Part shown: positions 2,775 to 40,258 of the stretch, piece by piece
Numbering within the stretch: position 1 is the first letter of the stretch
Layout: each line of letters opens with the position of its first letter
Assembly: GCA_041658255.1 (NCBI GenBank)
Contig: JBBAAQ010000008.1
Coordinates: 3,442 to 67,441 of the forward strand
Source: Candidatus Woesearchaeota archaeon
GTDB lineage: Archaea; Nanobdellota; Nanobdellia; Woesearchaeales; UBA9642
DNA length: 64,000 nt
Direction of reading: 5' to 3'
Program-made: the position numbers and the translations under genes
The notes under the pieces: generated by a model
Databases searched by the model: none
What the model was told of the DNA's origin: nothing
The model's input: the letters and a program-made list of their open reading frames with translations, nothing else

Positions 2775-3131
2775 TTAGGCGTATAATGCGGGGCTTGATT
2801 CTGTTAATCGCGGTACGAGAATAGGTGTTGTCATTCGATCGCGGGATAGAAATATGAGTAAGATTTTTATGATAAAAAAATTGTGCTTATTGATGATTTC
2901 TATTTGACATTCTTTAATATCTCCAAGAGAAATGCTGCCCGATTTTTCAAAACTGAGTTCTTTTAATAATTTTGTGGCATCGAGCAATTCAATTCCCGTG
3001 ACTTCCTTTTTTCCATTATAGTCAATAATCATATCATTAACTTCTACACTTGCTTTTGATTTCGATTTTGGATCGTAGAGAAATAAACTATCATTTTCTT
3101 TATCATAATCAAATTTGAATTTGCGAAACAT
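2775..3131 (-). CDS. DUF2283-like protein (putative antitoxin partner)
   Basis: FDYDKENDSLFLYD...VTGIELLDA matches the DUF2283 pattern. It lies immediately downstream of a DUF4258-like gene, with a 1-nt gap. Confidence 0.5.
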   Translation of the reverse strand: MFRKFKFDYDKENDSLFLYDPKSKSKASVEVNDMIIDYNGKKEVTGIELLDATKLLKELSFEKSGSISLGDIKECQIEIINKHNFFIIKILLIFLSRDRMTTPILVPRLTESSPALYA

Positions 3132-3132
3132 G

Positions 3133-3456
3133 TTATTTCCTCAGGAGTATCTTTTTTTCAACAATATGTTGCCATCTGCGATTAATTTTAACAACAGTTA
3201 TGATGACAATGTTCTTTTCGATTGCAAGGATATATCGGTGGCAGAGATTTTTGCTATAATCAAAATAACAATCAAATTTCTGCTTCTCTTTACGTATAGC
3301 ATATACTAATCGCTTCGGGTTTAAAATGTTTTCTATAACTTCGTTTTCAGATATCTGCCGCTGAATCATTCGAATATGTGCATGCGGTGTGATAATAATT
3401 TGTTCTCGGCGAAATGGTTTAAGTAGCGTGATAAGTTCATCTTTGCAATTCATCAT
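3133..3456 (-). CDS. DUF4258-like toxin
   Basis: ITPHAHIRMIQRQISENEVIENIL matches the DUF4258 signature (HAxxRMxxRxIS). Confidence 0.5.
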   Translation of the reverse strand: MMNCKDELITLLKPFRREQIIITPHAHIRMIQRQISENEVIENILNPKRLVYAIRKEKQKFDCYFDYSKNLCHRYILAIEKNIVIITVVKINRRWQHIVEKKILLRK

Positions 3457-3513
3457 AGAGAAAAACCGTTATACTTTAAATGTGTTATGCGCACTTGACC
3501 AGTGTGTATAGTG

Positions 3514-3537
3514 AAAAGAAAAGGTGGACAGCGAACC
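3514..3537. repeat. 24-bp duplicate of the 3' end and flank of 5S rRNA gene 1
   Basis: aaaagaaaaggtggacagcgaacc occurs identically at 3514-3537 and 3639-3662. Confidence 0.8.
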
Positions 3538-5305: not shown

Positions 5306-5369
5306 ATTTATGTATTGCGTCTGCAGAGTATCACAACATTTATAAACAATCCTATTTATAGGAGTGATT

Positions 5370-6023
5370 ATGCCTAAAAATAGGATTAATCTATCGCGCA
5401 AGGATTATGAAATAATCCTCCCTTTTATTAAAGAGCCGTGGAGCAAATATACATTCAAGGATATCAAGCGAATCTCTGGTAAACGTTCTGAAAGTTATGT
5501 GTATACCACTCTTAAAAAATATGTTAAGGAAGATGCGTTAATTGAGGAGAAAGTGGGCAATACACTCATTTATAGGGTTAATTTTGAACAATATTCGGCG
5601 CTGAGTTATTTTGGTTTTATTGCTGAACAATTCGCATGGAATTCTAAACAATTGCCTCATGATACGATTAAAAAAATTTTATCAAAGATTTCAGCAGCCT
5701 ATTTTACTTGTATCATAACAGGAAGTTATGCATCCCAGAAACAGCGCAGTGATTCTGACCTTGACATTGTTATTATCTGCGATGATACGCAGGATACAAA
5801 AAATTTACTCGCACGGATACATTATACCTGCGAGCTCTCAATCCCGCACGTTCATCCATATATTTTTAAGCGATCAGAATTCATAGAAATGCTTCTCAAT
5901 AATCACGCAAATTATGGCAAAGAAATTGTGAAGAATAACTTACTGCTATTTGGCGGGTCATATTATTTTAAGATGATGGGTGAGGTGATGCAACATGGAT
6001 TTAATGATACGAATCTATCTTGA
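5370..6023 (+). CDS. wHTH plus minimal nucleotidyltransferase (MNT-like) protein
   Basis: GSYASQKQRSDSDLDIVIICDD carries the GS...DxD nucleotidyltransferase motif. It is a paralogue of the ORF at 34330-34929. Confidence 0.6.
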   Translation: MPKNRINLSRKDYEIILPFIKEPWSKYTFKDIKRISGKRSESYVYTTLKKYVKEDALIEEKVGNTLIYRVNFEQYSALSYFGFIAEQFAWNSKQLPHDTIKKILSKISAAYFTCIITGSYASQKQRSDSDLDIVIICDDTQDTKNLLARIHYTCELSIPHVHPYIFKRSEFIEMLLNNHANYGKEIVKNNLLLFGGSYYFKMMGEVMQHGFNDTNLS

Positions 6024-6096
6024 ACGGGCTCAAAATGAGATTATTATTGCAGATGCATTAACGCGATTAAGCGAAGATATCTTTCGGGATTCATGA
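5995..6096 (+). pseudogene. Truncated HEPN-like ORF (33 codons)
   Basis: Manual translation gives MDLMIRIYLERAQNEIIIADALTRLSEDIFRDS*. It overlaps the MNT 3' end as cognate HEPN genes do, but stops after ~33 aa where the convergent gene begins. Confidence 0.35.
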
Positions 6097-6309
6097 TTAA
6101 TTTCTGATTTTTTTTATGGCTTGCGTTATTTCTTCTTTTGTGATTACTTTTTTTCCTTTGATTTCAGATATTCGTGCAGCAGTATTTATTAAGTTATTTA
6201 TCTCTTTAGCAATTATTATTTCTATTTCTTTTATTGTTTCATCATTAGCCTTAAAATGCTTCTTTTTAATTATTTTTCGTATTTTAAATCGAATTAATAA
6301 ATTAGTCAT
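6097..6309 (-). CDS. DUF1931-like histone-fold protein
   Basis: The pattern FKANDETIKEIEIIIAKEINNLINTAARISEIKGKKVITKEEI resembles DUF1931 and histone-fold proteins. Confidence 0.4.
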   Translation of the reverse strand: MTNLLIRFKIRKIIKKKHFKANDETIKEIEIIIAKEINNLINTAARISEIKGKKVITKEEITQAIKKIRN

Positions 6310-6334
6310 TTTATTGTCTTTAACGGCTTTTTTA

Positions 6335-6859
6335 CTAATGTATTAGTATATATCTTTTTTTGAATAATACGGCGTTTATTTTAAATGCTTCGTCGAATAT
6401 TTCTTCATAAGCAGTATCTGCAATAAACGTCCCATCAGTAATCCATTCACCATATTTTTCTACTAAGCCTTTATTTTTTTTTCCACGAAATAAGGTTGTT
6501 ATCTTGACTTTTTGCTTATTGTCCATGTTTTTCATACTATACGTGTATAAAATTTTGCTCTCGAAGCGAAATATTTCTGAGAACTTTTTATTATTTAGGA
6601 TACTATATCCTTCGCGAATTAGCGTATTTATTAATGTTATAGGCTTGACAAAGAAATCTTCAATAGTAATAATACTTATATGGTATCCTGTGAGGTTTAT
6701 CTCTAAATCTTTGTTCGTAGTGATTATTGCAACATCTATGTCTGAAGGATTTATTTTGCCTTTAACCGCGGATCCGAATATGATGATATCTATGATATCT
6801 ATATTTTTTACAAATTTTTTAAAATCATTTCTTATTTTTGATGATAGTTCTGATTTCAT
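6335..6859 (-). CDS. Nucleotidyltransferase-domain protein (MNT-like)
   Basis: IIIFGSAVKGKINPSDIDVAII carries the GS-x9-DxD motif. Confidence 0.65.
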   Translation of the reverse strand: MKSELSSKIRNDFKKFVKNIDIIDIIIFGSAVKGKINPSDIDVAIITTNKDLEINLTGYHISIITIEDFFVKPITLINTLIREGYSILNNKKFSEIFRFESKILYTYSMKNMDNKQKVKITTLFRGKKNKGLVEKYGEWITDGTFIADTAYEEIFDEAFKINAVLFKKRYILIH

Positions 6860-7157
6860 ATGAATATGTTTTAATACTAATGGCGTCTTTTTGTTCTAAT
6901 CTTAAATTATATGAATCAACATATTTTTTAAATAAATTGGAGACCTTCAAATAAATATCCGGAAAATATTTTTTTAATAATGAAAATCGGTCATTATGAT
7001 TTTTAGGTAAAATGCGTATCTCTTTATAGATGAGATAGTCGCAAGATATCACTATTGCTTTGAAGAAATCCGAAGCCGCCGCATTGAATCTATTTTTCTT
7101 TAAATTTTCTTCGCCCGATTCGATGAATTCTGCAATATTATCTAATAATTCTTTCAT
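6825..7157 (-). CDS. HEPN-domain protein
   Basis: A 110-aa helical protein (FNAAASDFFKAIVISCDYLIY...) that overlaps the downstream MNT gene by 35 nt. Confidence 0.5.
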   Translation of the reverse strand: MKELLDNIAEFIESGEENLKKNRFNAAASDFFKAIVISCDYLIYKEIRILPKNHNDRFSLLKKYFPDIYLKVSNLFKKYVDSYNLRLEQKDAISIKTYSYEIRTIIKNKK

Positions 7158-25123: not shown

Positions 25124-25996
25124 ATGAAAAATGTCGTTATTTTAAATAAAAAAGAAATTAAGGACAGAATATATTTAATCCGGGATATGCAAGTAATACT
25201 TGATAAAGATTTAGCAGAACTATATGGGGTAAAAGCAATTCGTTTGAGAGAACAAGTTAAAAGAAATATTAAAAGATTTCCTCCAGATTTTATGTTTCAA
25301 TTAACTAATAAAGAAGTAGATGTTTTGGTATCGCAAAATGCGATACCATCAAAAAAACATCTTGGAGGATATTTGCCTTATGTTTTTACAGAACAGGGTG
25401 TTGCAAATCTTTCAAGTGTACTTACAAATGATAAGGCAATAGAGGTAAATATTCAAATTATGCGAACATTTGTAGCAATGAGAAAATTTATCTCTTCAAA
25501 TGCGCAGATATTTCATCGATTAGATACAGTTGAAAGAAAGCAGTTAGAACATGATGACAAATTTGATCAATTATTTGATGCAATACAGAGTAAAGATATT
25601 AAGCCTGAAAAAGGGATATTTTTTGATGGGCAAATATTTGATTCGTATAAATTTATTTCGGATATTATACGAACAGCAAATGAATCTATTATATTGATTG
25701 ACAATTATATTGATGATTCAGTATTAACGCTATTTAATAAGAGAAAGAGAGATGTAAGGGTTATTATATTTACTAAAGAAATAACGAGACAGTTAACACT
25801 TGATTTGAGTAAATATAATTCTCAATATTCACCAATAGAAATTAAAGAGTTTAAACAATCACATGACCGGTTTATAATAATAGATAATAAAGAGGTTTAT
25901 CATTTTGGAGCTTCATTAAAAGATTTAGGAAAAAAATGGTTCGCATTTTCAAAATTCGATAAAGAAGCATTCAAGATAATAGAGAAGTTAAAATGA
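25124..25996 (+). CDS. ORF6N-domain protein with a PLD/HKD-like C-terminal domain
   Basis: IYLIRDMQVILDKDLAELYGVKAIRLREQVKRNIKRFPPDFMFQLT...YVFTEQGVANLSSVL is an ORF6N domain. The C-terminus carries HDRFIIIDNKEVYHFGASLKDLG. Confidence 0.7.
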   Translation: MKNVVILNKKEIKDRIYLIRDMQVILDKDLAELYGVKAIRLREQVKRNIKRFPPDFMFQLTNKEVDVLVSQNAIPSKKHLGGYLPYVFTEQGVANLSSVLTNDKAIEVNIQIMRTFVAMRKFISSNAQIFHRLDTVERKQLEHDDKFDQLFDAIQSKDIKPEKGIFFDGQIFDSYKFISDIIRTANESIILIDNYIDDSVLTLFNKRKRDVRVIIFTKEITRQLTLDLSKYNSQYSPIEIKEFKQSHDRFIIIDNKEVYHFGASLKDLGKKWFAFSKFDKEAFKIIEKLK

Positions 25997-33477: not shown

Positions 33478-33483
33478 TTGATT

Positions 33484-33897
33484 ATGCATGTACACGCGAT
33501 TATGAAATTATCCACGAAATCTCATTCATCTTATGCGGGAGTAATACTATTAATAATTGTATGTACCCTATTCACGTCTATTGGTCAACTCTTATTAAAA
33601 CTTGGTTCAAGTCATACAAATTCAATTATAGAAATCGTCACTAACATCCCGCTTATTTTTGGACTCATCTCTTATGCTTTTGGTGCAGTCCTACTCATCC
33701 TTGCATTAAAGTATGGCGAACTTTCATTAATTTATCCATTCATCGCCTTAAGTTTTATCTGGGTGAATCTACTTTCATTATTTATCTTTCATGAATATAT
33801 TGCATTCATCAATTGGATAGGTATTATCGCTATTGTTATCGGTGTTTCGCTTATCGGGTATGGTGGGCATGAACATCGTAAGGCGGTGAAATCATGA
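33484..33897 (+). CDS. Small EamA/SMR-like 4-TM transporter subunit (ArnE/ArnF-like)
   Basis: About 130 aa with 4 predicted TM helices. An ATGA overlap links it to the next gene. Confidence 0.55.
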   Translation: MHVHAIMKLSTKSHSSYAGVILLIIVCTLFTSIGQLLLKLGSSHTNSIIEIVTNIPLIFGLISYAFGAVLLILALKYGELSLIYPFIALSFIWVNLLSLFIFHEYIAFINWIGIIAIVIGVSLIGYGGHEHRKAVKS

Positions 33898-34250
33898 ATA
33901 TCTTTGTAGTCATCATCATCATGATTGTTGCAACACTTATTGGTTCATTAGGATCTATCTTCCTTAAACTCGGAGCAGCACATTTTACCATCAGATTCAC
34001 ATTCAAAAATCTCATACATCTATTCCGGAATTGGCGTCTCATCCTTGGCATATTCCTTTATGCACTTTCAACAATTCCCTTCATCTATCTATTACGTTCA
34101 GTCGAACTCTCCGTACTCTACCCGCTTACTGCCCTAGGATATATCTTTATCATATTCTTTTCGAGATTAATCCTTAAAGAACACATCACATCATATAAGA
34201 TTGTAGGTATACTATTTATTATTCTTGGTGTGATCTTTGTAACACTCTAG
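33894..34250 (+). CDS. Small EamA/SMR-like 4-TM transporter subunit (ArnE/ArnF-like)
   Basis: 118 aa with 4 TM helices. Its last ~253 bp are reiterated twice downstream. Confidence 0.55.
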   Translation: MNIFVVIIIMIVATLIGSLGSIFLKLGAAHFTIRFTFKNLIHLFRNWRLILGIFLYALSTIPFIYLLRSVELSVLYPLTALGYIFIIFFSRLILKEHITSYKIVGILFIILGVIFVTL

Positions 34251-34329
34251 TCACACTGGCGTTTTTTAAGCTCAAAACGAAACATTTATATACTTTTAAG
34301 TGAACACTTGTTCATATAAAGGTGAACAC

Positions 34330-34929
34330 ATGTATATTAATAAGTCTACAGCTAAAATACTCCAATTATTTATTAGTCATATAACTGAATCATTTACTCT
34401 TAGGGAAGTAGCAAGAAGATTAAATATGTATGTATCCCTTGCACATCGAGCTATACGGCCGTTAATAGATGCTAAGATTGTTGAGCAAGATAAACATAAA
34501 AATCTTAGCCTAAATTACAAGATTCATCATGAAACTATTGCTTTTGCTGAATATCTAAGGAGAGATCATTTTCTTGATAAATTCAAGGAGGTTAAATTTT
34601 TTGCAGATGAAGTTATTAAAAAAATTGAACAGAACAGTTTTGTTTTGCTTGTTTTTGGTTCATCAATTGAATCCCGTAAACCCAGAGATATTGATATATT
34701 ACTCATTGTAGATAGTACTGATAAAATAGCATTCCATGAGAAATTCTTACACAACATCGCATCGAATTATGATTTACCATTTGAGGAAAGAGTTGTAGGA
34801 TTTGAAAGTGTTTACGAAATGCTTACCAAGCGTGATGAAAAAAATGTTATGAACGAGTTATTGAACAAACATATCATTTTATATGGTGCGGAACTGTTTT
34901 ATAGACTAATTCAAAGGGGGCGGTTATAA
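34330..34929 (+). CDS. wHTH plus nucleotidyltransferase (MNT-like) protein
   Basis: LLVFGSSIESRKPRDIDILLIVDS. It is a paralogue of 5370-6023. Confidence 0.6.
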   Translation: MYINKSTAKILQLFISHITESFTLREVARRLNMYVSLAHRAIRPLIDAKIVEQDKHKNLSLNYKIHHETIAFAEYLRRDHFLDKFKEVKFFADEVIKKIEQNSFVLLVFGSSIESRKPRDIDILLIVDSTDKIAFHEKFLHNIASNYDLPFEERVVGFESVYEMLTKRDEKNVMNELLNKHIILYGAELFYRLIQRGRL

Positions 34930-34930
34930 C

Positions 34931-35134
34931 ATGTTAGATGAAAAAAAGCTAAAAGAAGCAGAAAGCAGGATTAAGCAGTTTATACGTGAAGGAATAATTA
35001 AGTCAAAGGGAAAGCCAGAGCAGGTAGATTTTTTTATTAAGAATGCTGACGATTCAATTGATTCTGCAAAAGCATTATTTGAGTTATCAACCAATCCTGA
35101 AAAACAGGAAGTAATATGTTCATTATCTTATTGA
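34931..35134 (+). pseudogene. Truncated HEPN-like ORF
   Basis: EAESRIKQFIREGII...FFIKNADDSIDSAKALFELS is a HEPN-type N-terminus. It ends after 67 aa, just upstream of foreign fragments. Confidence 0.4.
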
Positions 35135-35160
35135 ATTCAGGTTTCATGGAAAAGCAAAGT

Positions 35161-35252
35161 ATGAAGTCAAAGAGTTTAAACAATCACATGATCGGTTTAT
35201 CATAATAGATAATAAAGAGGTTTATCATTTTGGTGCTTCATTAAAAGATTTA
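35161..35252 (+). pseudogene. Fragment of an ORF6N/PLD-like gene 3' region
   Basis: The ~84 bp at 35169-35252 are near-identical to 25844-25927 and encode KEFKQSHDRFIIIDNKEVYHFGASLKDL. Confidence 0.8.
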
Positions 35253-35503
35253 CACTCAAAAATCTTGTCGCTCTTATCAAAAATTGGCGTCTCATTCTTG
35301 GAATTGTACTCTATGCTCTTTCAACAATTCCATTTATATACCTTCTCCGTTCAGTCGAACTCTCCGTATTATATCCTATGACGGCCTTAGGATATATCTT
35401 TGTCATATTCTTTTCGAGATTAATCCTTAAAGAACATATTACTTTTTACAAGATCGGAGGAATCATCTTTATCATTCTTGGCGTAGTGTGCGTGACACTC
35501 TAA
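35253..35503 (+). repeat. 5'-truncated copy 2 of the 3' end of the transporter gene 33894-34250
   Basis: It aligns with 33998-34250. The reading frame is preserved (..WRLILGIVLYALSTIPFIYLLRSVELSVLYPMTALGYIFVIFFSRLILKEH..) and substitutions are scattered. Confidence 0.85.
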
Positions 35504-35563
35504 TGTGTTGTAGTATATAATGTACCAGTGTTCACTTCTCACACTGGTCATGCACGCGTGAAG

Positions 35564-35571
35564 TTTATAAG
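35564..35571 (+). promoter_or_regulatory. TATA box of cassette B (within the conserved 74-bp segment 35539-35612)
   Basis: gaagTTTATAAGttc, 28 bp before the ATG at 35599. Confidence 0.5.
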
Positions 35572-35598
35572 TTCATAGATATTTCTTAAAGCAGGTTG

Positions 35599-36468
35599 AT
35601 GCGCATGGATATACATTATTCGATAAAATTATTTGAAGATAAGAAAGTTAGAGTTCAATGGGTTGAGGAAGAGGAAAAATGGTATTTTTCAATAGTTGAT
35701 GTTATGGAAGTACTTACAGAAAGCTTAACACCGCGAAGATACTGGTCTGACCTAAAAATCAAGCTCAAAGAGGAAGGTTTTGAGTTGTACGATAAAATCG
35801 TACAACTGAAATTAGTATCTTCGGATGGTAAAAAGTATGAAACGGACTGTGCTGATACGGAGCTAGTATTAAGACTGGTCCAGTCCATTCCTTCAAAGAA
35901 AGCTGAACCTTTCAAAGTTTGGCTTGCAAAAGTGGGGAATGATCGAATAAATGAGACATATGATCCTGAACTTGCCTTTGATAGGGCCATGAAGACGTAT
36001 TTGCAAAAGGGTTATTCTCAAGAATGGATTAATCAGCGACTAAAAACTATTGAAATACGTAAAGAACTCACTGACGAATGGAATAGGTCTGGAGTAAGTA
36101 AAGAATCAGATTATGCAATACTCACTAATGAAATAACTCACGCATGGTCAGGAAAGACGGTTCAAGAATACAAAAGATTAAAGAGTCTTAAGAAGGAAAA
36201 TCTTAGGGATAATATGACGAATCTTGAACTCGTATTAAATATGCTTGCAGAAGCCACAACCACTGAGATTTCAAAAAATGAGGATCCAAAAACATTTCCT
36301 GAAAATAAAAATGTTGCGAAAAGAGGAGGAACAATCGCAGGAAATACGCGGATAGATATAGAGAAACAATTAAAAAGAAGTGTGGTGACCACAAAAAATG
36401 CAAAAGACGATATTAAAAAATTAGATTCCGATCGTATCAAAAAAATAGGACACAAAAAGAAAGGATGA
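35599..36468 (+). CDS. Bro-N domain protein (phage antirepressor-like)
   Basis: FEDKKVRVQWVEEEEKWYFSIVDVMEVLTES...RRYWSDLK is a Bro-N signature. Confidence 0.65.
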   Translation: MRMDIHYSIKLFEDKKVRVQWVEEEEKWYFSIVDVMEVLTESLTPRRYWSDLKIKLKEEGFELYDKIVQLKLVSSDGKKYETDCADTELVLRLVQSIPSKKAEPFKVWLAKVGNDRINETYDPELAFDRAMKTYLQKGYSQEWINQRLKTIEIRKELTDEWNRSGVSKESDYAILTNEITHAWSGKTVQEYKRLKSLKKENLRDNMTNLELVLNMLAEATTTEISKNEDPKTFPENKNVAKRGGTIAGNTRIDIEKQLKRSVVTTKNAKDDIKKLDSDRIKKIGHKKKG

Positions 36469-36477
36469 TGATATATC

Positions 36478-36730
36478 CACATTCAAAAATCTCATCCTTT
36501 TACTCCGGAATTGGCGTCTCATCCTTGGCATATTCCTTTATGCACTTTCAACAATTCCATTTATATACCTTCTCCGTTCAGTCGAACTCTCCGTACTCTA
36601 CCCGCTTACTGCCCTAGGATATATCTTTATCATATTCTTTTCAAGACTAATCCTTAAAGAACATATCACATCTTACAAGATCGCAGGAATTATATTTATC
36701 ATTATCGGCGTCGTGTTTGTGACGCTCTAG
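36478..36730 (+). repeat. 5'-truncated copy 3 of the 3' end of the transporter gene
   Basis: It aligns with 33998-34250 and is closer to the intact gene than copy 2 is. Confidence 0.85.
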
Positions 36731-36755
36731 TCACACTGGTCATGCACGCGTGAAG

Positions 36756-36763
36756 TTTATAAG
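36756..36763 (+). promoter_or_regulatory. TATA box of cassette C (within the conserved segment 36731-36804)
   Basis: The sequence and the 28-bp spacing to the ATG at 36791 are the same as in cassette B. Confidence 0.5.
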
Positions 36764-36790
36764 TTCAAAGATATTTCTTAAAGCAGGTTG

Positions 36791-37645
36791 ATGAACATGG
36801 ATAAACAAATTATCTCTAAACTTCAAAAGACATTTGAAGATTATGCAAAAGAGACTGAAGGAATAGAATTCTGGTTTGCAAGAGACTTACAAATTCTTCT
36901 CGAGTATGAGGACTGGCGAAATTTTTGGAATGTCATTGAAAAAGCAAAGATGGCCTGTAAAAATTCAGGTTACGACGTAAACCATCATTTCGTTGATGTC
37001 ACCAAAACGATCCTTATGCCAAAAAGTGCAAGTAAAGAAATTCCTGATATTGTTCTTACGCGATATGCGTGTTATCTTGTTGCACAAAATGGTGATTCAA
37101 GAAAAGAACCAATTGCGTTTGCCCAAAGTTATTTTGCAGTACAGACGAGAAAACAGGAATTAATAGAAAAACGGATAGCATTACAGGAACGATTTGAAGC
37201 AAGAAATAAACTCATTGTTTCAGAAACAGAACTTTCTAAACTGATTTATGAACGCGGTGTTGATGATGCAGGATTTGCAAGAATTCGGGGTAAAGGAGAT
37301 GAAGCGCTCTTTGGAGGGTTCACAACAGCACAAATGAAAGTCAAGCTTAAAATCCCGCAAAACAGACCAATGGCAGATTTTTTACCGACAGTAACAATAA
37401 CTGCTAAAAATTTTGCTACTGAAATCACGAATTTTAATGTAATAAAAGAAAACCTTAATGGAGAAATCGATATCACTCACGAACATGTAAAGAACAACAC
37501 AAAAATCCGTGGAGTGCTTATAGAGAGTGGAATTGCTCCAGAAAATTTGCCTCCGGAAGAAGATTTAAAGAAACTTGAACGAAGGGTTAAAAAAGACGAA
37601 AAGAGTATAGCCCTCCATGCAAAACATCACATTAAACTAAAATAG
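36791..37645 (+). CDS. dinD: DNA damage-inducible protein D (DinD)-like
   Basis: EGIEFWFARDLQILLEYEDWRNFWNVIEKAKMACKNSG...LTRYACYLVAQNGDSRKEPIAFAQSYFAVQTR closely follows the DinD family pattern. Confidence 0.75.
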   Translation: MNMDKQIISKLQKTFEDYAKETEGIEFWFARDLQILLEYEDWRNFWNVIEKAKMACKNSGYDVNHHFVDVTKTILMPKSASKEIPDIVLTRYACYLVAQNGDSRKEPIAFAQSYFAVQTRKQELIEKRIALQERFEARNKLIVSETELSKLIYERGVDDAGFARIRGKGDEALFGGFTTAQMKVKLKIPQNRPMADFLPTVTITAKNFATEITNFNVIKENLNGEIDITHEHVKNNTKIRGVLIESGIAPENLPPEEDLKKLERRVKKDEKSIALHAKHHIKLK

Positions 37646-37856
37646 GCGTTTTGTTTAGCATGCTCACATTTTATATTGTTTTGCGTTCGTAGCCGAGTTA
37701 TATTCACTTCTCGCACTGGACAGGCACGCACGAAATTTATAACAAGAGAGATGCTTCTTCAAATGTGCCACTATTTTACTCATTCTCTTCATATTATTAG
37801 CTTAGAAAGTTATCAAAAGCGATAACTTTACACATCAGGAACAAGATAACTATCTT

Positions 37857-38105
37857 ATGCAGACGATATTATTACTAAAACAATTGGATGAAAAGGCGGT
37901 ATTTACAATACAAGATATTAAGAGAATAACTCATTGTAATAGTTTGTACGCTAAACAGATCATAAATCGATTGCACAAAAAAGGATTCATAAAAAAGATT
38001 GATAAAAAAGGGAGCATATGGGTGAGTGAACTAAGTCCATTAATAGATACTGTTCCAAAATTTAGCGAAGTAAAAAATAAAATACTCAAAAACATCAGCG
38101 GATAA
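37857..38105 (+). CDS. Small wHTH protein
   Basis: FTIQDIKRITHCNSLYAKQIINRLHKKGFIKKI. Confidence 0.35.
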   Translation: MQTILLLKQLDEKAVFTIQDIKRITHCNSLYAKQIINRLHKKGFIKKIDKKGSIWVSELSPLIDTVPKFSEVKNKILKNISG

Positions 38106-38189
38106 AATAATACGCGAAGATTGTTACGATTACTCTATCAAAAGCGCTTCCGTAATATTTTTAAACTCCTCACCGTATAAGCATATGCT

Positions 38190-38876
38190 ATGGATACACT
38201 TGAAGCGATTGAGACGAGAAGGTCGGTTCGTAAATATCTTGATCGTCCTGTAGAATTTGAAAAATTGACGACAATTCTTGATGCTGCACGCAAAGCACCA
38301 TCCGCAGGTAATTTGCAGACTTGGCGTTTTGTCATGGTTACTGAGAAGAATCTTATTAAGCAGGTCGCGACCTATTCAGTCGAACAATACTGGATTGCAA
38401 CTGCCCCTGTCCTGATTCTCGTGTGTACTGTTCCGGAAAAACATGAACTCTACTATGGTCTACGGGGAAAAAGATTGTATGCAGTGCAGGATTGTGCTGC
38501 AGCAATACAGAATTTGATGCTTGCAGCAACAGACCTTGGCCTCGGTACGTGTTGGGTTGGCGCGTTTGAAGAGGATAAAATAAAGTCTTTATTCGAGATT
38601 CCTCCAGATATCCGCCCTCAAGCAATTATTACACTCGGATATCCTGACGAAGTATTAGAACCTCGTGTTCTTGACCCGATCGAAAATCAGGTCTATTTTA
38701 ATCGTTGGGGTATGCGTGTCGAGAAACTTCATATTGTCCTGCGTGATTATTCTGTCGAATGGCAAAAACAGAATAGTCGCATGAAGAATGCATTCAAGAG
38801 CACTGGCCGCAAGTTCCGCGAAGAACTGAATAGGTTCACCGGTAAAATGCGTGAACGATTCAGGAAGAAGAAATAG
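38190..38876 (+). CDS. Nitroreductase-family protein
   Basis: AIETRRSVRKYLDRPV...AARKAPSAGNLQTWRFVMV...GLGTCWVGAF. Confidence 0.85.
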   Translation: MDTLEAIETRRSVRKYLDRPVEFEKLTTILDAARKAPSAGNLQTWRFVMVTEKNLIKQVATYSVEQYWIATAPVLILVCTVPEKHELYYGLRGKRLYAVQDCAAAIQNLMLAATDLGLGTCWVGAFEEDKIKSLFEIPPDIRPQAIITLGYPDEVLEPRVLDPIENQVYFNRWGMRVEKLHIVLRDYSVEWQKQNSRMKNAFKSTGRKFREELNRFTGKMRERFRKKK

Positions 38877-38969: not shown

Positions 38970-39563
38970 ATGACAATCGAAATTCCGCAATATGGATTAA
39001 AGGCATATGCGTTATTGTTTTCAAAACATCACACGCATGGAGAATTCAGGCAGTCTGAATTAGACTGGATAGTATCTATCAGCATGAAAAAGAAAATATT
39101 CTCTTTGTTATTGAGGACAGGATGGATTAAAAAAAATCCCGAAGGAACATATTCTTGTACAAATCCTACAGACGCAATAAGAGGATTATTGGAGTTTCGG
39201 GTTCCCGAGATTATCAAGAATGCAGAGAAGACATATGCATTTACACGAGTTTCGGCTGTCGAAATTTGGTCTGATTTTTCCTATGTACAACGAGGATTAG
39301 AAAAGTCTCCCTATTTCATTAAGATTTTGAAAAAAGACTTGAACTATTGGAAGAAATTTTTTAATAGTAATGAAATACCGAACTATGTTCATTCAGGAGG
39401 AACAATAGGAGAGTTTATTATTTTTATTCCAGTAAGTTCATTATCATTTGAAGAAAAAAATGGATTCAAAGTCGATTCATTAAAAGAGACCATCACGTAT
39501 GCAAAATCAAATGACATCTATGCATATGCATCAGAATATATGAAGAATAAATATGGTGCATGA
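38970..39563 (+). CDS. Hypothetical protein, possibly AbiEi-like (wHTH) antitoxin
   Basis: 197 aa, with an ATGA overlap to a downstream nucleotidyltransferase-like gene. The call rests on context only. Confidence 0.3.
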   Translation: MTIEIPQYGLKAYALLFSKHHTHGEFRQSELDWIVSISMKKKIFSLLLRTGWIKKNPEGTYSCTNPTDAIRGLLEFRVPEIIKNAEKTYAFTRVSAVEIWSDFSYVQRGLEKSPYFIKILKKDLNYWKKFFNSNEIPNYVHSGGTIGEFIIFIPVSSLSFEEKNGFKVDSLKETITYAKSNDIYAYASEYMKNKYGA

Positions 39564-40258
39564 GCATGATTAAAGATCTTTTTTCATTAAGAGAAGGAGA
39601 AATATTTAATACGCTTAAAGAATTAAGAGACTGTGATTTTTCTATTATCGGAGGTTATGCAGTCAATGCATACACATTACCAAGATTTTCAGTAGACTGC
39701 GATATCGTCATTAAAGACGAAACCGTGCTGAGAAAAATAGAGAAGATCCTCTTAAAAGTTGGCTACAAAAAAGAAAAACTTCCACAAGAAGCACAATATT
39801 CCGGAAACTTTTCCAGATATGAAAAAAAATTGAGTAATAATTTTGCGGTAAGTATGGATATCTTGATTAGTCATGTAACAGACCGAATGACTGGGGTAGT
39901 ATTTGCAGCAGATTGGATTTTTGAAAACTCGAGTATGCAACTATTGAGAGGAAAAACCATTACTGAAGAACTCAAAATGCGCATACTGCACATCGATGCA
40001 TTGCTTGTGATGAAAATGATATCATGCAGATCCACAGATATAAGGGATGTATTTATGATGTTTCCAAACGCTAAGGATAAAGAATGGATAAAGTCAGAGA
40101 TATCTTTACGATATTACTTTAAAGACAGAATCACGAAAATCATTGAGAAAATCTCCTCAAAACAATTCAAAGACGGACTCTCAGGAGTCTATGGCTATTT
40201 TGACCAGAACGTTTTTGAAAAACACAAGAAAGCGATTATAGGTTTTATCTCTCTATAA
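39560..40258 (+). CDS. Nucleotidyltransferase-fold protein (AbiEii/DUF1814-like?)
   Basis: FSIIGGYAVNAYTLPRFSVDCDIVIKDE resembles the GG..A...R.S.D.D motif. Confidence 0.35.
   Translation: MSMIKDLFSLREGEIFNTLKELRDCDFSIIGGYAVNAYTLPRFSVDCDIVIKDETVLRKIEKILLKVGYKKEKLPQEAQYSGNFSRYEKKLSNNFAVSMDILISHVTDRMTGVVFAADWIFENSSMQLLRGKTITEELKMRILHIDALLVMKMISCRSTDIRDVFMMFPNAKDKEWIKSEISLRYYFKDRITKIIEKISSKQFKDGLSGVYGYFDQNVFEKHKKAIIGFISL

What the first reader, a model, noticed from the sequence alone, without database searches (positions are those of the whole stretch)
33998..37760. The transporter 3' end plus promoter is reiterated, and each copy fronts a different KilA-N/Bro-N-superfamily or TA cargo gene
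The last ~253 bp of the transporter gene (33998-34250) recur as 5'-truncated copies at 35253-35503 and 36478-36730. In both copies the reading frame is preserved but diverged.

Both truncated copies are followed by the same 74-bp segment (35539-35612 and 36731-36804). It reads tcacactggtcatgcacgcgtgaagTTTATAAGttca.agatatttcttaaagcaggttgatg..catgga and supplies a TATA box and the start codon. A fourth, degenerate copy of this segment (37711-43, 26/33 identical) has no long ORF behind it.

Between the repeats sit different cargoes:
- A: wHTH-MNT, a truncated HEPN and an 84-bp fragment of the ORF6N/PLD gene whose intact copy is at 25124-25996;
- B: a Bro-N protein;
- C: a DinD-like protein.

ORF6N, Bro-N and the DinD N-terminus all belong to the same broad DNA-binding superfamily typical of phages and mobile elements. 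This looks like serial site-specific integration at the 3' end of the transporter gene, with each event regenerating the gene end. Alternatively it could be a cassette-exchange hotspot that places variable anti-phage or phage-derived genes under one fixed promoter. No recombinase is present in the window.
Basis: partly seen in the sequence, partly recalled or inferred. Interest (0 to 1): 0.8.

Follow-up and report, generated by a model that had tools for sequence, protein, structure and literature searches.

The report
Defence-gene island with displaced transporter ends
A 3.9-kb island of candidate anti-phage genes sits behind a small transporter gene of a DPANN archaeon, and the reiterated transporter ends are relics of gene ends from other lineages, most simply left by successive recombination events anchored in that gene.

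Summary
The last ~256 bp of the EamA-type gene (33995-34250) recur at 35248-35503 and 36475-36730. A 77-bp promoter segment recurs at 35539-35615 and 36731-36807, with a degenerate copy at 37703-37762. Four independent assemblies show parts of the same array.

Two relatives have the transporter directly followed by the nitroreductase gene at 38190. So 34251 to about 38130 is an insertion.

The truncated copies differ from the live gene end mostly at synonymous sites (dN/dS 0.09-0.17, dS 0.5-1.15), like true orthologues. They are former or foreign functional gene ends, not in-situ duplicates. They are mosaic, and strain differences cluster in them, so gene conversion is ongoing.

One junction shows 7-bp microhomology. 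No recombinase lies in the window, and no conserved element arm flanks the copies.

Best reading: serial 3'-end displacement by homology-anchored plus illegitimate recombination.

Cargo genes B and C belong to PADLOC candidate-defence family PDC-S13. The shared promoter carries a CACTGG(A/T)CA element found before such genes in other DPANN genomes. Bro-N and DinD homologues elsewhere are flanked by direct repeats of local sequence about 7-10 times more often than control positions.

Verdict: a new variant of a known kind, of moderate interest.

The parts
33478..33897 (+). First EamA-type half-transporter gene (partner of the anchor gene); last genes of a glycosylation cluster
   Evidence: Pfam EamA, E 1.3e-7. 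The same gene order occurs in relatives L169-L172.
33894..34250 (+). Intact 118-aa EamA-type transporter gene, the anchor gene whose 3' end is reiterated
   Evidence: Pfam EamA. Homologues at 99% and 84% identity are P0001 and P0002.
33995..34259 (+). Repeat copy 1: the live 3' end of the gene plus TCACACTGG, the first 9 nt of the promoter segment
   Evidence: the repeat finder family D1; alignment A1.
34330..34929 (+). Cargo A1: winged-helix plus nucleotidyltransferase (MNT-like) protein of 199 aa
   Evidence: PADLOC PDC-M05A, E 5e-9. Weak HTH hits in Pfam. The GS...DxD nucleotidyltransferase motif can be read in the translation.
34931..35134 (+). Cargo A2: 67-aa ORF, possibly a truncated partner (HEPN?) of A1; identity unverified
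   Evidence: No hit in Pfam, NCBIfam, PHROGs or PADLOC.
35163..35252 (+). 90-bp internal fragment of an ORF6N-PLD gene whose intact copy is at 25124-25996
   Evidence: 94% identical to 25838-25927. The intact sequence was read.
35246..35252 (+). Illegitimate junction: 7-bp microhomology AGATTTA shared by the PLD fragment and the transporter allele
   Evidence: The blastn ranges overlap. Sequences were read.
35248..35503 (+). Repeat copy 2: 5'-truncated transporter end, a displaced relic whose 5' part matches the allele of relative L003
   Evidence: dN/dS against copy 1 is 0.09 with dS 1.15.
35504..35538 (+). 35-bp spacer. It contains CCAGTGT, inverted relative to the ACACTGG of the promoter element, and resembles the sequence before promoter copy 4
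35539..35615 (+). Promoter segment of cargo B: CACTGGTCA element, TTTATAAG box and start codon
   Evidence: the repeat finder family D4, 95% identical to 36731-36807. Motif analysis.
35605..36468 (+). Cargo B: Bro-N plus DinD-like protein of 287 aa (PADLOC PDC-S13; predicted fold resembles DdrC)
   Evidence: Pfam Bro-N; phrog_15286; PDC-S13, E 2e-127. More than 8000 homologues. AF2 model and Foldseek search.
36475..36730 (+). Repeat copy 3: 5'-truncated transporter end, a mosaic of copy-1-like and copy-2-like tracts. It carries a 102-bp deletion in strain L002
36731..36807 (+). Promoter segment of cargo C
36797..37645 (+). Cargo C: DinD family protein of 282 aa (PADLOC PDC-S13)
   Evidence: NCBIfam NF008573, 347.5 bits against a cut-off of 242. 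Pfam Bro-N. PDC-S13, E 9e-112.
37703..37762 (+). Degenerate fourth promoter copy (TTCACTTCTCGCACTGGACAGG...TTTATAAC)
   Evidence: the repeat finder family D2, 77%. Local alignment score 87 against a shuffle maximum of 66.
37857..38105 (+). Cargo D: 82-aa winged-helix protein, the last gene of the island
   Evidence: Called as a gene on L085 and L086. PADLOC AbiEi N-terminus, E 2.6e-6. Absent from L003 and L169.
38190..38876 (+). Nitroreductase gene, the native downstream neighbour of the transporter. It marks the right edge of the island, at about 38110-38150
   Evidence: It lies directly after the transporter in L003 (165-bp gap) and in L169-L172 (43-bp gap).
25124..25996 (+). Intact ORF6N-PLD gene (PADLOC PDC-S05), related to the source of the 90-bp fragment in cassette A
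3470..3515 (-). Fifth copy of the promoter element (TTCACTATACACACTGGTCA...ATTTAAAG), in front of a DUF4258/DUF2283 toxin-antitoxin pair

Best explanation
The segment from 34251 to about 38130 is a small accretion island of candidate defence or stress genes.

**What it contains.**
- A: an MNT-type nucleotidyltransferase plus remnants.
- B: a Bro-N/DinD-like protein.
- C: a DinD protein.
- D: a small winged-helix protein.

**Where it sits.** It lies between the last gene of a glycosylation cluster (an EamA-type half-transporter) and that gene's native neighbour, a nitroreductase.

**How it most likely formed (inferred).** It was built by successive '3'-end displacement' events. DNA from related lineages carried the transporter end followed by a cargo gene. 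That DNA recombined through the transporter homology, which served as the anchor. Its far end was joined illegitimately, at short microhomology, inside the resident transporter gene. A Campbell-type crossover of a circularised fragment would give the same product. Each event kept the transporter intact and pushed the previous 3' end downstream as a 5'-truncated, untranslated relic.

**What is shown.**
- The region is an insertion.
- The relics evolved as functional gene ends in other lineages.
- One junction is a microhomology join.
- The relics and the live gene end still exchange sequence by gene conversion.

**What is inferred.** The order of events, the anchored-recombination mechanism, and the idea that cargo and gene end arrived together.

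**The promoter.** Each cargo has its own archaeal promoter. Those of B, C and D share a CACTGG(A/T)CA element 12-17 nt upstream of the TATA box. That element marks a promoter class used by Bro-N/DinD and toxin-antitoxin genes in DPANN archaea. Co-regulation by an unidentified factor is likely.
For: 1. **Insertion.** The related species L003 (transporter 79% nt identical) and the more distant relatives L169-L172 have the transporter followed directly by the nitroreductase, with gaps of 165 bp and 43 bp.
2. **Relics evolved as functional gene ends.** Nei-Gojobori dN/dS between copies is 0.09-0.17 with dS 0.48-1.15. The real orthologue pair, copy 1 against L003, gives 0.07. In its first 50 nt, copy 2 has 4 differences from the L003 allele and 13 from copy 1.
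3. **Recombination among copies.** Copy 3 switches at least four times between copy-1-like and copy-2-like tracts. Between the window and strain L002 (98% identical), most differences fall inside the three copies and the promoter: 47 of 59 substitutions and all 102 gap positions, the latter being one deletion in copy 3. Tracts have been exchanged.
4. **Illegitimate junction.** The PLD fragment and copy 2 overlap by the 7-bp AGATTTA. The fragment is internal to a gene whose intact copy is at 25124-25996.
5. **No recombinase.** None was found among the window ORFs of 174 aa or more that were scanned. No integron-type palindromic site or Rfam element was found.
6. **The same architecture occurs elsewhere with other anchor genes.**
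   - Lhr helicase 3' end around a Bro-N gene in Woesearchaeota L034.
   - The 3' end of a 1303-aa gene around DinD in L142.
   - Methylase 3' fragments alternating with DinD and RhuM in L101 and L103.
   - The hsdM 5' end around DinD with or without RhuM in L138 and L146.
7. **Flanking direct repeats are enriched.** They occur in 15 of 73 Bro-N loci against 18 of 944 control positions (odds ratio 13, p 6e-10). They occur in 12 of 63 DinD loci against 12 of 464 (odds ratio 8.9, p 3e-6).
8. **A published model of this kind exists.** It covers Rhs/CDI orphan modules and T6SS effector-immunity arrays (PMC5361080, read).
Against: - The 5' breakpoints of copies 2 and 3 fall within about 7 bp of each other (33993-33999). 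Independent illegitimate joins should rarely coincide (roughly 2% by chance). This fits a defined element end or a hotspot better. The local hairpin is weak.
- No intermediate or alternative arrays were found. All near-identical strains carry the same cargo order, and the next relative has none.
- Allelic replacement of the live gene by ordinary recombination, separate from cargo arrival, would give the same dN/dS signature. So co-arrival of cargo and gene end is not proven.
- Joining upstream of the anchor requires a circular intermediate or a sister chromatid. This has not been shown in archaea.
- Only 64 kb of the genome was seen.
Confidence: 0.55

Rival explanations
1. Serial site-specific integration. 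Small integrative cassettes each carry a replacement transporter 3' end as attP. A tyrosine or serine recombinase encoded elsewhere inserts them one after another at attB in the gene end. Known parallels are tandem SCC elements at rlmH, tycheposons at tRNA genes, and phage 21/e14 at icd.
For: - Direct repeats of the target gene's 3' end bound each unit, and empty sites exist in relatives.
- Copies 2 and 3 share the same 5' boundary to within a few bp, as expected for a fixed attP.
- The substitute gene ends differ mostly at synonymous sites. From general knowledge, the same is true of the icd ends carried by e14 and phage 21.
- TCACACTGG follows all three copies, and cassette A diverges right after it.
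Against: - No recombinase was found in 64 kb.
- The element-side sequences next to copies 2 and 3 are unrelated, so there is no conserved arm.
- One boundary is a microhomology join to a gene fragment.
- The copies are multi-breakpoint mosaics.
- The units are single genes of about 1 kb.
- The promoter core was not found in viral or JGI metagenome collections.
- Other genomes show the same architecture with different anchor genes and with repeat lengths from 50 to 370 bp.
Confidence: 0.2
2. Cassette-intrinsic mobility. Bro-N/DinD (PDC-S13) genes with their CACTGG promoter are single-gene selfish units that promote their own insertion next to or into host genes, with long target duplications. 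One possible route is binding DNA ends and circularising fragments that then integrate by host recombination.
For: - The family is very widespread and conserved: more than 8000 homologues, at 58-84% identity from DPANN archaea to Gardnerella and Sulfurimonas.
- Flanking direct repeats of local sequence are 7-13 times enriched around both Bro-N and DinD genes.
- In several loci the distal repeat starts within 0-60 bp of the stop codon.
- The predicted fold of B matches DdrC, a DNA-damage response protein. My recollection of the DdrC literature, not checked here, is that it binds DNA breaks and circularises linear DNA.
Against: - The flanking repeats are heterogeneous. They include host 3' ends, host 5' ends, whole small genes, promoters of tandem paralogues and intergenic repeats.
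- Other, unrelated cargo in the same islands is also repeat-flanked: L039, and cassette A here.
- No catalytic domain is evident.
- No conserved DNA ends were found beyond the ORF.
- About 80% of loci have no flanking repeat.
Confidence: 0.1
3. In-situ tandem duplication of the unit (transporter end + promoter + Bro-N-family gene), followed by divergence of the paralogues and decay of the redundant transporter ends.
For: - B and C have the same architecture (Bro-N plus DinD-like), similar lengths, the same PADLOC family and a 95% identical promoter.
- Tandem Bro-N paralogues that share a promoter and the first codons occur in other genomes: L014, L030, L045 and L058.
Against: - dN/dS of 0.09-0.17 with dS up to 1.15 between copies is incompatible with neutral decay of redundant fragments.
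- B and C are not alignable by BLASTP, while their flanks are 80-95% identical.
- Cassette A is unrelated.
Confidence: 0.04
4. Assembly artefact: the repeats arise from mis-joining of strain variants in a metagenome assembly.
For: Contigs from short-read assemblies break near the repeats. L001 ends inside B, and L084 starts at the promoter of C.
Against: - Four assemblies from three samples agree on overlapping parts of the array.
- The copies differ by 12-24%, which a collapse or duplication artefact would not produce.
Confidence: 0.01

Closest known systems
C-terminal (3'-end) displacement arrays: Rhs/CDI 'orphan' modules and Vibrio T6SS effector-immunity arrays (Jackson 2009, as cited in Kirchberger 2017; Kirchberger 2017, PMC5361080)
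   Same: - An intact gene is followed by 5'-truncated copies of its own 3' region, each with a different downstream gene.
- The proposed origin is the same: a homologous anchor plus an illegitimate join, which pushes the older end downstream.
- The relics keep enough homology to recombine with the live gene.
- No dedicated recombinase is involved.
   Different: - Here the reiterated end encodes a conserved membrane segment with nearly identical amino acids, not a polymorphic toxin domain.
- The downstream genes are unrelated defence-type genes with their own promoters, not cognate immunity genes.
- The host is a DPANN archaeon.
Tandem integrative elements at the 3' end of a gene: SCCmec/ACME at rlmH, tycheposons at tRNA genes, e14/phage 21 at icd
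   Same: - The target gene's 3' end is regenerated.
- Partial copies of it bound successive inserts.
- Relatives have an empty site.
- The substitute ends differ mainly at synonymous sites.
   Different: - No recombinase and no conserved element arm were found.
- The units are single genes.
- One junction is a microhomology join.
- The copies are multi-breakpoint mosaics.
Integron cassette arrays
   Same: - A co-oriented array of single-gene cassettes is separated by a recurring sequence.
- Newer cassettes may lie nearest the anchor.
   Different: - There is no intI, attI or palindromic attC.
- The recurring sequence is a coding gene end plus a promoter.
- Each cassette has its own promoter.
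DinD/RhuM/Bro-N genes embedded in restriction-modification operons and defence islands (noted in PMC9881135; PADLOC candidate systems PDC-S13 and PDC-S05)
   Same: - The cargo families are the same.
- In the metagenome loci examined here, those insertions are also flanked by duplicated ends of hsdM or methylase genes.
   Different: - The anchor here is a glycosylation-cluster transporter, not a defence gene.
- I did not find the flanking duplications themselves described in the papers I could search.

Membership tests
Integrative element array made by a site-specific recombinase | Recombinase gene in or next to the element | tested here: not met
   Pfam scans of the island ORFs and of the window ORFs of 174 aa or more that were scanned found no integrase, resolvase or transposase. 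The rest of the genome was not seen.
Integrative element array made by a site-specific recombinase | Direct repeats that contain the target gene's 3' end, and an empty site in relatives | tested here: met
Integrative element array made by a site-specific recombinase | Conserved element-side arm next to each att copy, and a single fixed crossover point | tested here: not met
   The sequences left of copies 2 and 3 are unrelated: a PLD fragment and the end of gene B. The copies are mosaics with several switches.
Integrative element array made by a site-specific recombinase | Free, circular or elsewhere-integrated copies of the same unit | tested here: not met
   The promoter core pattern is absent from viral contigs and metagenome contigs. 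The repeat DNA is absent from the 80 Bro-N genome loci fetched at that point. Sampling of this lineage is thin.
Integron | intI/attI platform and palindromic attC sites between promoterless cassettes | tested here: not met
   No integrase was found. The recurring unit is a coding sequence plus a promoter with a TATA box and a start codon. Folding shows no attC-like structure.
3'-end displacement (orphan-module) array | Intact gene followed by 5'-truncated copies of its 3' region, each with different downstream genes | tested here: met
3'-end displacement (orphan-module) array | The relics derive from once-functional ends (purifying-selection signature) and can recombine with the live gene | tested here: met
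   dN/dS 0.09-0.17. Gene-conversion tracts differ between strains.
3'-end displacement (orphan-module) array | Junctions formed by illegitimate recombination at microhomology | tested here: inconclusive
   One junction (35246-35252) shows 7-bp microhomology. The junction between B and copy 3 cannot be resolved. The near-coincidence of the two breakpoints is unexplained.
3'-end displacement (orphan-module) array | The displaced 3' regions encode polymorphic toxin domains with cognate immunity genes | tested here: not met
   The encoded peptide is conserved, and the cargo genes are unrelated to the transporter.
DinD family (NCBIfam NF008573) | Full-length match above the curated cut-off | tested here: met
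   Cargo C scores 347.5 bits against a cut-off of 242, matching residues 1-274 to model positions 1-283 of 288. Cargo B scores 26 bits and is not a member.
Bro-N domain (PF02498) | Match above the Pfam gathering score | tested here: met
   B scores 31.9 bits and C scores 35.6 bits, against a cut-off of 25.6.
PADLOC candidate defence system PDC-S13 | Profile match; anti-phage activity | tested here: inconclusive
   B matches at E 2e-127 and C at E 9e-112. The family is a candidate system, and activity cannot be tested here.
HEPN-MNT toxin-antitoxin pair (cassette A) | MNT nucleotidyltransferase next to a HEPN protein with the Rx4-6H motif | tested here: inconclusive
   A1 has the nucleotidyltransferase motif and matches PDC-M05A. 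The 67-aa A2 has no profile hit and is too short to carry the motif.

The most novel reading that the evidence does not exclude
Bro-N/DinD (PDC-S13) genes, with their CACTGG-type promoter in DPANN archaea, may be single-gene mobile cassettes. They would spread across Archaea and Bacteria by carrying a piece of the neighbouring host gene as an 'address tag'. Repeat-mediated excision would give a circle made of cassette plus tag. That circle would re-insert by host homologous recombination into any genome with a homologous gene, adding to an array. The DdrC-like, DNA-end-binding cargo protein might assist circularisation. This would be a recombinase-free mode of gene mobility. It would also explain the direct repeats of flanking sequence seen around these genes, including the hsdM and methylase ends duplicated in several restriction-modification loci examined here.
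Probability: 0.12. Interest if true: 0.85.

Novelty: new variant of a known kind. Interest (0 to 1): 0.55.

Why it matters
The locus gives a clear, datable record of how a streamlined DPANN archaeon adds defence-type genes without any visible recombinase. It keeps an operon gene intact while stacking former gene ends as relics.

Two points reach beyond this locus.

1. Bro-N and DinD genes are very common passengers of defence islands and restriction-modification operons. In about one fifth of the loci examined from many phyla, they are flanked by direct repeats of local sequence, in several cases duplicated ends of the neighbouring host gene. This points to a general, recombination-based route of insertion that could be tested experimentally.

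2. A conserved CACTGG(A/T)CA promoter element links Bro-N, DinD, a small winged-helix gene and a toxin-antitoxin pair in DPANN archaea. This suggests an unrecognised regulon for mobilome or defence genes.

The predicted DdrC-like fold of the Bro-N/DinD-like protein also offers a lead on what this family does.

Tried and rejected
- **Transporter as query.** A genome-contig scan found no close relative. The 5.8-billion protein search gave only two close homologues, so the lineage is thinly sampled.
- **Promoter core as a DNA pattern.** It gave 0 hits in viral contigs and in metagenome contigs. Cargo B gave no relative in viral contigs.
- **Island repeats in other loci.** blastn of the transporter-end and promoter repeats against the 80 Bro-N genome loci found nothing. 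The exact unit is therefore not seen elsewhere.
- **Homology between the L003 intergenic spacer and promoter copy 4.** Alignment scores are at shuffle level, so this was rejected.
- **A remnant of a fourth transporter end after gene C (37646-37700).** It is suggestive only within a longer local alignment, and I do not claim it.
- **A hairpin hotspot at the shared 5' breakpoint.** Stems are weak, with z about -1, so this is not supported.
- **Rfam search of 33-39 kb.** Nothing credible was found. There is no tRNA in the window.
- **Defining the mobile unit from pairs of loci.** Nucleotide homology between genomes (80-89%) stops at the ORF ends. At this divergence that does not separate 'the ORF is the unit' from 'only the ORF is conserved'.
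- **PDB sequence searches with B and C.** No hits. Only the fold search was informative.
- **Literature searches.** I looked for a description of host-gene-end duplications around DinD, RhuM or Bro-N. I found only notes that these genes sit between restriction-modification genes.

Full report
**1. The observation**

The window is AT-rich DNA (about 36% G+C). It carries archaeal-type promoters and genes whose closest relatives are annotated as Woesearchaeota/Nanoarchaeota.

The repeat finder gives three in-register copies of a 265-nt unit at 33995-34259, 35248-35512 and 36475-36739. Copies 2 and 3 are 76% and 88% identical to copy 1.
- Copy 1 is the live 3' end of a 118-aa EamA-type gene (33894-34250; Pfam EamA).
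- Copies 2 and 3 keep the reading frame, but stop codons lie upstream of each in that frame and no start codon is available. They are untranslated relics.

A 77-nt segment with a TTTATAAG box and the start codon is 95% identical at 35539-35615 and 36731-36807. A degenerate copy lies at 37703-37762. Its 30-nt core occurs twice in the window, against zero expected.

Four other assemblies from three samples carry overlapping parts of the same array at 98-100% identity (L001, L086, L002, L084). It is therefore not an assembly artefact.

- The ORF6N/PLD fragment is 90 bp (35163-35252), 94% identical to 25838-25927.
- Copy 1 is followed by only TCACACTGG of the promoter segment.
- The fourth promoter copy does precede a gene, an 82-aa winged-helix ORF at 37857-38105.
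- The 'HEPN' label of 34931-35134 could not be confirmed.

**2. The region is an insertion**

A related species (L003, NCBI GCA_040960315.1; transporter 79% nt identical, nitroreductase 89%) has the transporter followed after 165 bp by the nitroreductase gene, which in the window starts at 38190.

More distant relatives (L169-L172; nitroreductase 73% aa identical) keep the same glycosylation cluster. In L169, L170 and L172 the second EamA gene was called and is followed after 43 bp by the nitroreductase. L171 has the same layout, but that gene was not called there.

The ancestral state is therefore transporter then nitroreductase, and 34251 to about 38130 is derived. A strain at about 95-97% nt identity (L167, L168) carries cargo D next to the nitroreductase.

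**3. The truncated copies were functional gene ends in other lineages**

| Pair | dN/dS | dS |
|---|---|---|
| copy 1 / copy 2 | 0.09 | 1.15 |
| copy 1 / copy 3 | 0.10 | 0.48 |
| copy 2 / copy 3 | 0.17 | 0.59 |
| copy 1 / L003 (true orthologues) | 0.07 | 1.61 |

These are Nei-Gojobori estimates. Fragments decaying in place would show a much higher ratio. In its first 50 nt, copy 2 has 4 differences from the L003 allele and 13 from copy 1. This rules out simple in-situ duplication. Each relic is a snapshot of a working gene end, either imported or resident at the time.

**4. The copies keep recombining**

Copy 3 alternates at least four times between copy-1-like and copy-2-like tracts. The window and strain L002 differ at 161 alignment positions over 3.8 kb. 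Most of these fall in the three copies and the promoter: 47 of 59 substitutions and all 102 gap positions, which are one deletion in copy 3. The long stretches 33530-34111 and 34168-35126 have none. Individual tracts have been swapped between copies in one strain or the other, including a 56-bp patch in the live gene.

**5. How the units were joined**

The junction between the PLD fragment and copy 2 is a 7-bp overlap, AGATTTA (35246-35252). These bases are shared by the intact PLD gene and by the L003-type transporter allele. This is a classic microhomology join.

The sequences on the cargo side of copies 2 and 3 are unrelated. Pfam scans found no recombinase among the island ORFs or among the window ORFs of 174 aa or more that were scanned. 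That rest of the window is glycosylation, chaperone, ribonucleotide reductase and similar genes. No Rfam element, tRNA or attC-like structure is present.

The best-fitting published model is 3'-end displacement by homology-facilitated illegitimate recombination. It was proposed for rhs orphan ends and for Vibrio T6SS effector-immunity arrays (PMC5361080). In that model, an incoming fragment pairs through the conserved anchor and its non-homologous end is joined illegitimately, which pushes the older end downstream.

What that model does not explain is that the 5' breakpoints of copies 2 and 3 coincide within about 7 bp. I leave this as unexplained. It is the main point in favour of a defined element end.

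**6. The cargo**

| Unit | Coordinates | Best description | Evidence |
|---|---|---|---|
| A1 | 34330-34929 | Winged-helix plus nucleotidyltransferase; PADLOC PDC-M05A | |
| B | 35605-36468 | Bro-N plus a DinD-like middle region; phrog_15286; PADLOC PDC-S13, E 2e-127 | |
| C | 36797-37645 | Bona fide DinD (NF008573, 347.5 bits against a cut-off of 242); also PDC-S13 | |
| D | 37857-38105 | 82-aa winged-helix protein resembling AbiEi N-termini | |
| ORF6N-PLD | 25124-25996 | PADLOC PDC-S05 | |

B and C are too diverged for BLASTP to align them. B has more than 8000 homologues, at 58-84% identity from DPANN archaea and Patescibacteria to Bacteroidota, Clostridia, Gardnerella and Sulfurimonas.

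An AlphaFold2 model of B (mean pLDDT 78) matches only DdrC of Deinococcus radiodurans in the PDB (E 5e-5 to 2e-4, TM 0.4-0.5). DdrC is a DNA-damage response protein. This fits the damage-inducible DinD name and gives a functional lead. It does not prove homology.

**7. The 'fixed promoter' is a promoter class**

The element CACTGG(A/T)CA lies 12-17 nt upstream of the TATA box in promoter copies 2, 3 and 4. It also occurs at 3504 (minus strand), in front of a DUF4258/DUF2283 toxin-antitoxin pair.

The same element, at the same place, precedes Bro-N genes in seven other archaeal loci (L020, L024, L026, L028, L033, L061, L063) and a DinD gene in L092. That is 8 of 160 loci, against 0.07 expected (p about 1e-14). 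It is most simply an operator or upstream promoter element of a DPANN regulon for such genes.

The 95% identity of the B and C promoters over 77 nt goes beyond motif conservation. It points to recent recombination between them.

**8. The architecture recurs elsewhere**

Direct repeats of local sequence (at least 40 bp) flank the gene far more often than they flank control positions in the same loci.

| Gene family | Loci with flanking repeats | Control positions | Odds ratio | p |
|---|---|---|---|---|
| Bro-N (homologues of B) | 15 of 73 | 18 of 944 | 13 | 6e-10 |
| DinD (homologues of C) | 12 of 63 | 12 of 464 | 8.9 | 3e-6 |

Several cases copy the window's layout with other anchor genes:
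- An Lhr helicase 3' end in L034.
- The 3' end of a 1303-aa gene in L142. There the distal relic keeps the overlap with the next operon gene.
- Methylase C-terminal fragments alternating with DinD and RhuM in L101 and L103.
- The hsdM 5' end around DinD with or without RhuM in L138 and L146.
- The 5' end of a PLD-like gene in L039.
- A whole 79-aa gene in L065.

Other repeats are promoters shared by tandem Bro-N paralogues (L030, L045) or intergenic repeats (L038, L069). The class is therefore heterogeneous.

pN/pS between such duplicates is 0.3-0.5. That is higher than in the window and is compatible with a mix of in-place decay and import. Unrelated cargo in the same islands can also be repeat-flanked (L039). 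I therefore give only about 0.1 to the idea that the Bro-N/DinD genes mobilise themselves.

**9. Verdict**

- The reading as an insertion hotspot at the transporter's 3' end, with each event supplying or displacing a gene end, is supported.
- The 'site-specific' part is not supported.
- The 'one promoter' is a conserved promoter class.

The mechanism I favour is serial 3'-end displacement through homology-anchored recombination, with later gene conversion (confidence 0.55). This is a new variant of a known kind, in a new host group, with a housekeeping-type anchor and defence-type cargo. The cross-phylum flanking-repeat signal, the promoter element and the DdrC-like fold are the parts most worth following up.

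Noticed in passing
window 3470-3515 (-) and genes 3456..3133 (-), 3131..2775 (-): A fifth copy of the promoter element (TTCACTATACACACTGGTCA, then ATTTAAAG) precedes a DUF4258 / DUF2283 toxin-antitoxin-like pair. This suggests a regulon that links toxin-antitoxin, Bro-N, DinD and winged-helix genes.
   Followed up: partly
window 25124-25996: An intact ORF6N-PLD gene (PADLOC PDC-S05, E 1e-118) sits between the STT3 and PMT glycosylation genes. Its local G+C is only 0.28, so it looks like another single-gene insertion. It has no CACTGG promoter and no flanking repeat that I noticed. Homologues co-occur with Bro-N or DinD genes in L005 and L105.
   Followed up: partly
window 35605-36468 (model m4244a11685e7): The AlphaFold2 model of the Bro-N/DinD-like protein matches only DdrC of Deinococcus radiodurans in the PDB (7qvb, 8u0g, 7udi; E 5e-5 to 2e-4). 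I found no paper linking DinD and DdrC structurally.
   Followed up: partly
window 38970-39563 and 39560-40258: Two overlapping ORFs lie just after the nitroreductase. The second has weak AbiEii/DUF6036 nucleotidyltransferase hits, so this may be an AbiE-like pair. The first has no hit.
   Followed up: partly
window 36540-36641 (copy 3): Strain L002 (ERZ27249422) lacks 102 bp of copy 3, an in-frame loss of 34 codons. This shows that the relic is dispensable and decaying.
   Followed up: yes
window 36460-36504: The end of gene B (AAAGGATGA) pairs with TCATCCTTT inside copy 3. The DNA fold scores -6.8 kcal/mol with z -2.85. The pairing bases in copy 3 are substitutions unique to that copy. This may be a terminator-like hairpin that evolved across the junction.
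   Followed up: no
window 5364-6023 (+) and 6335-6859 (-); G+C 0.265 at 6001-7000: Two more Polbeta/MNT-type nucleotidyltransferase genes lie in a very AT-rich patch inside the glycosyltransferase cluster. They may be further toxin-antitoxin-type insertions.
   Followed up: no
L138 7425-9615; L146 7853-9422 (JGI metagenome contigs): In type I restriction-modification operons, DinD (with RhuM in L138) is flanked by a duplicated 130-150-bp 5' end of hsdM. The two copies are 92-94% identical within a genome. The same segment is only about 80-86% identical between genomes, which suggests concerted evolution of the two copies.
   Followed up: partly
L039 10036-14323 (uncultured Planctomycetia): Downstream of a repeat-flanked Bro-N gene lies an array of unrelated small genes. 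Each is preceded by the same 136-157-bp upstream sequence (91-99% identical), which ends about 13 nt before the start codon.
   Followed up: no
L003 818-926: The 165-bp spacer at the empty site of the related species contains a perfect 10-bp inverted repeat (CTTGAGCGTC ... GACGCTCAAG) about 90 bp apart. It may be a small inserted element or a scar. It is absent from the 43-bp spacer of L169.
   Followed up: no
L058 809-3349; L014 6807-9138: Tandem runs of Bro-N-superfamily paralogues and fragments occur in other genomes. L058 has DinD followed by two Bro-N genes. These parallel the B-C tandem in the window.
   Followed up: partly
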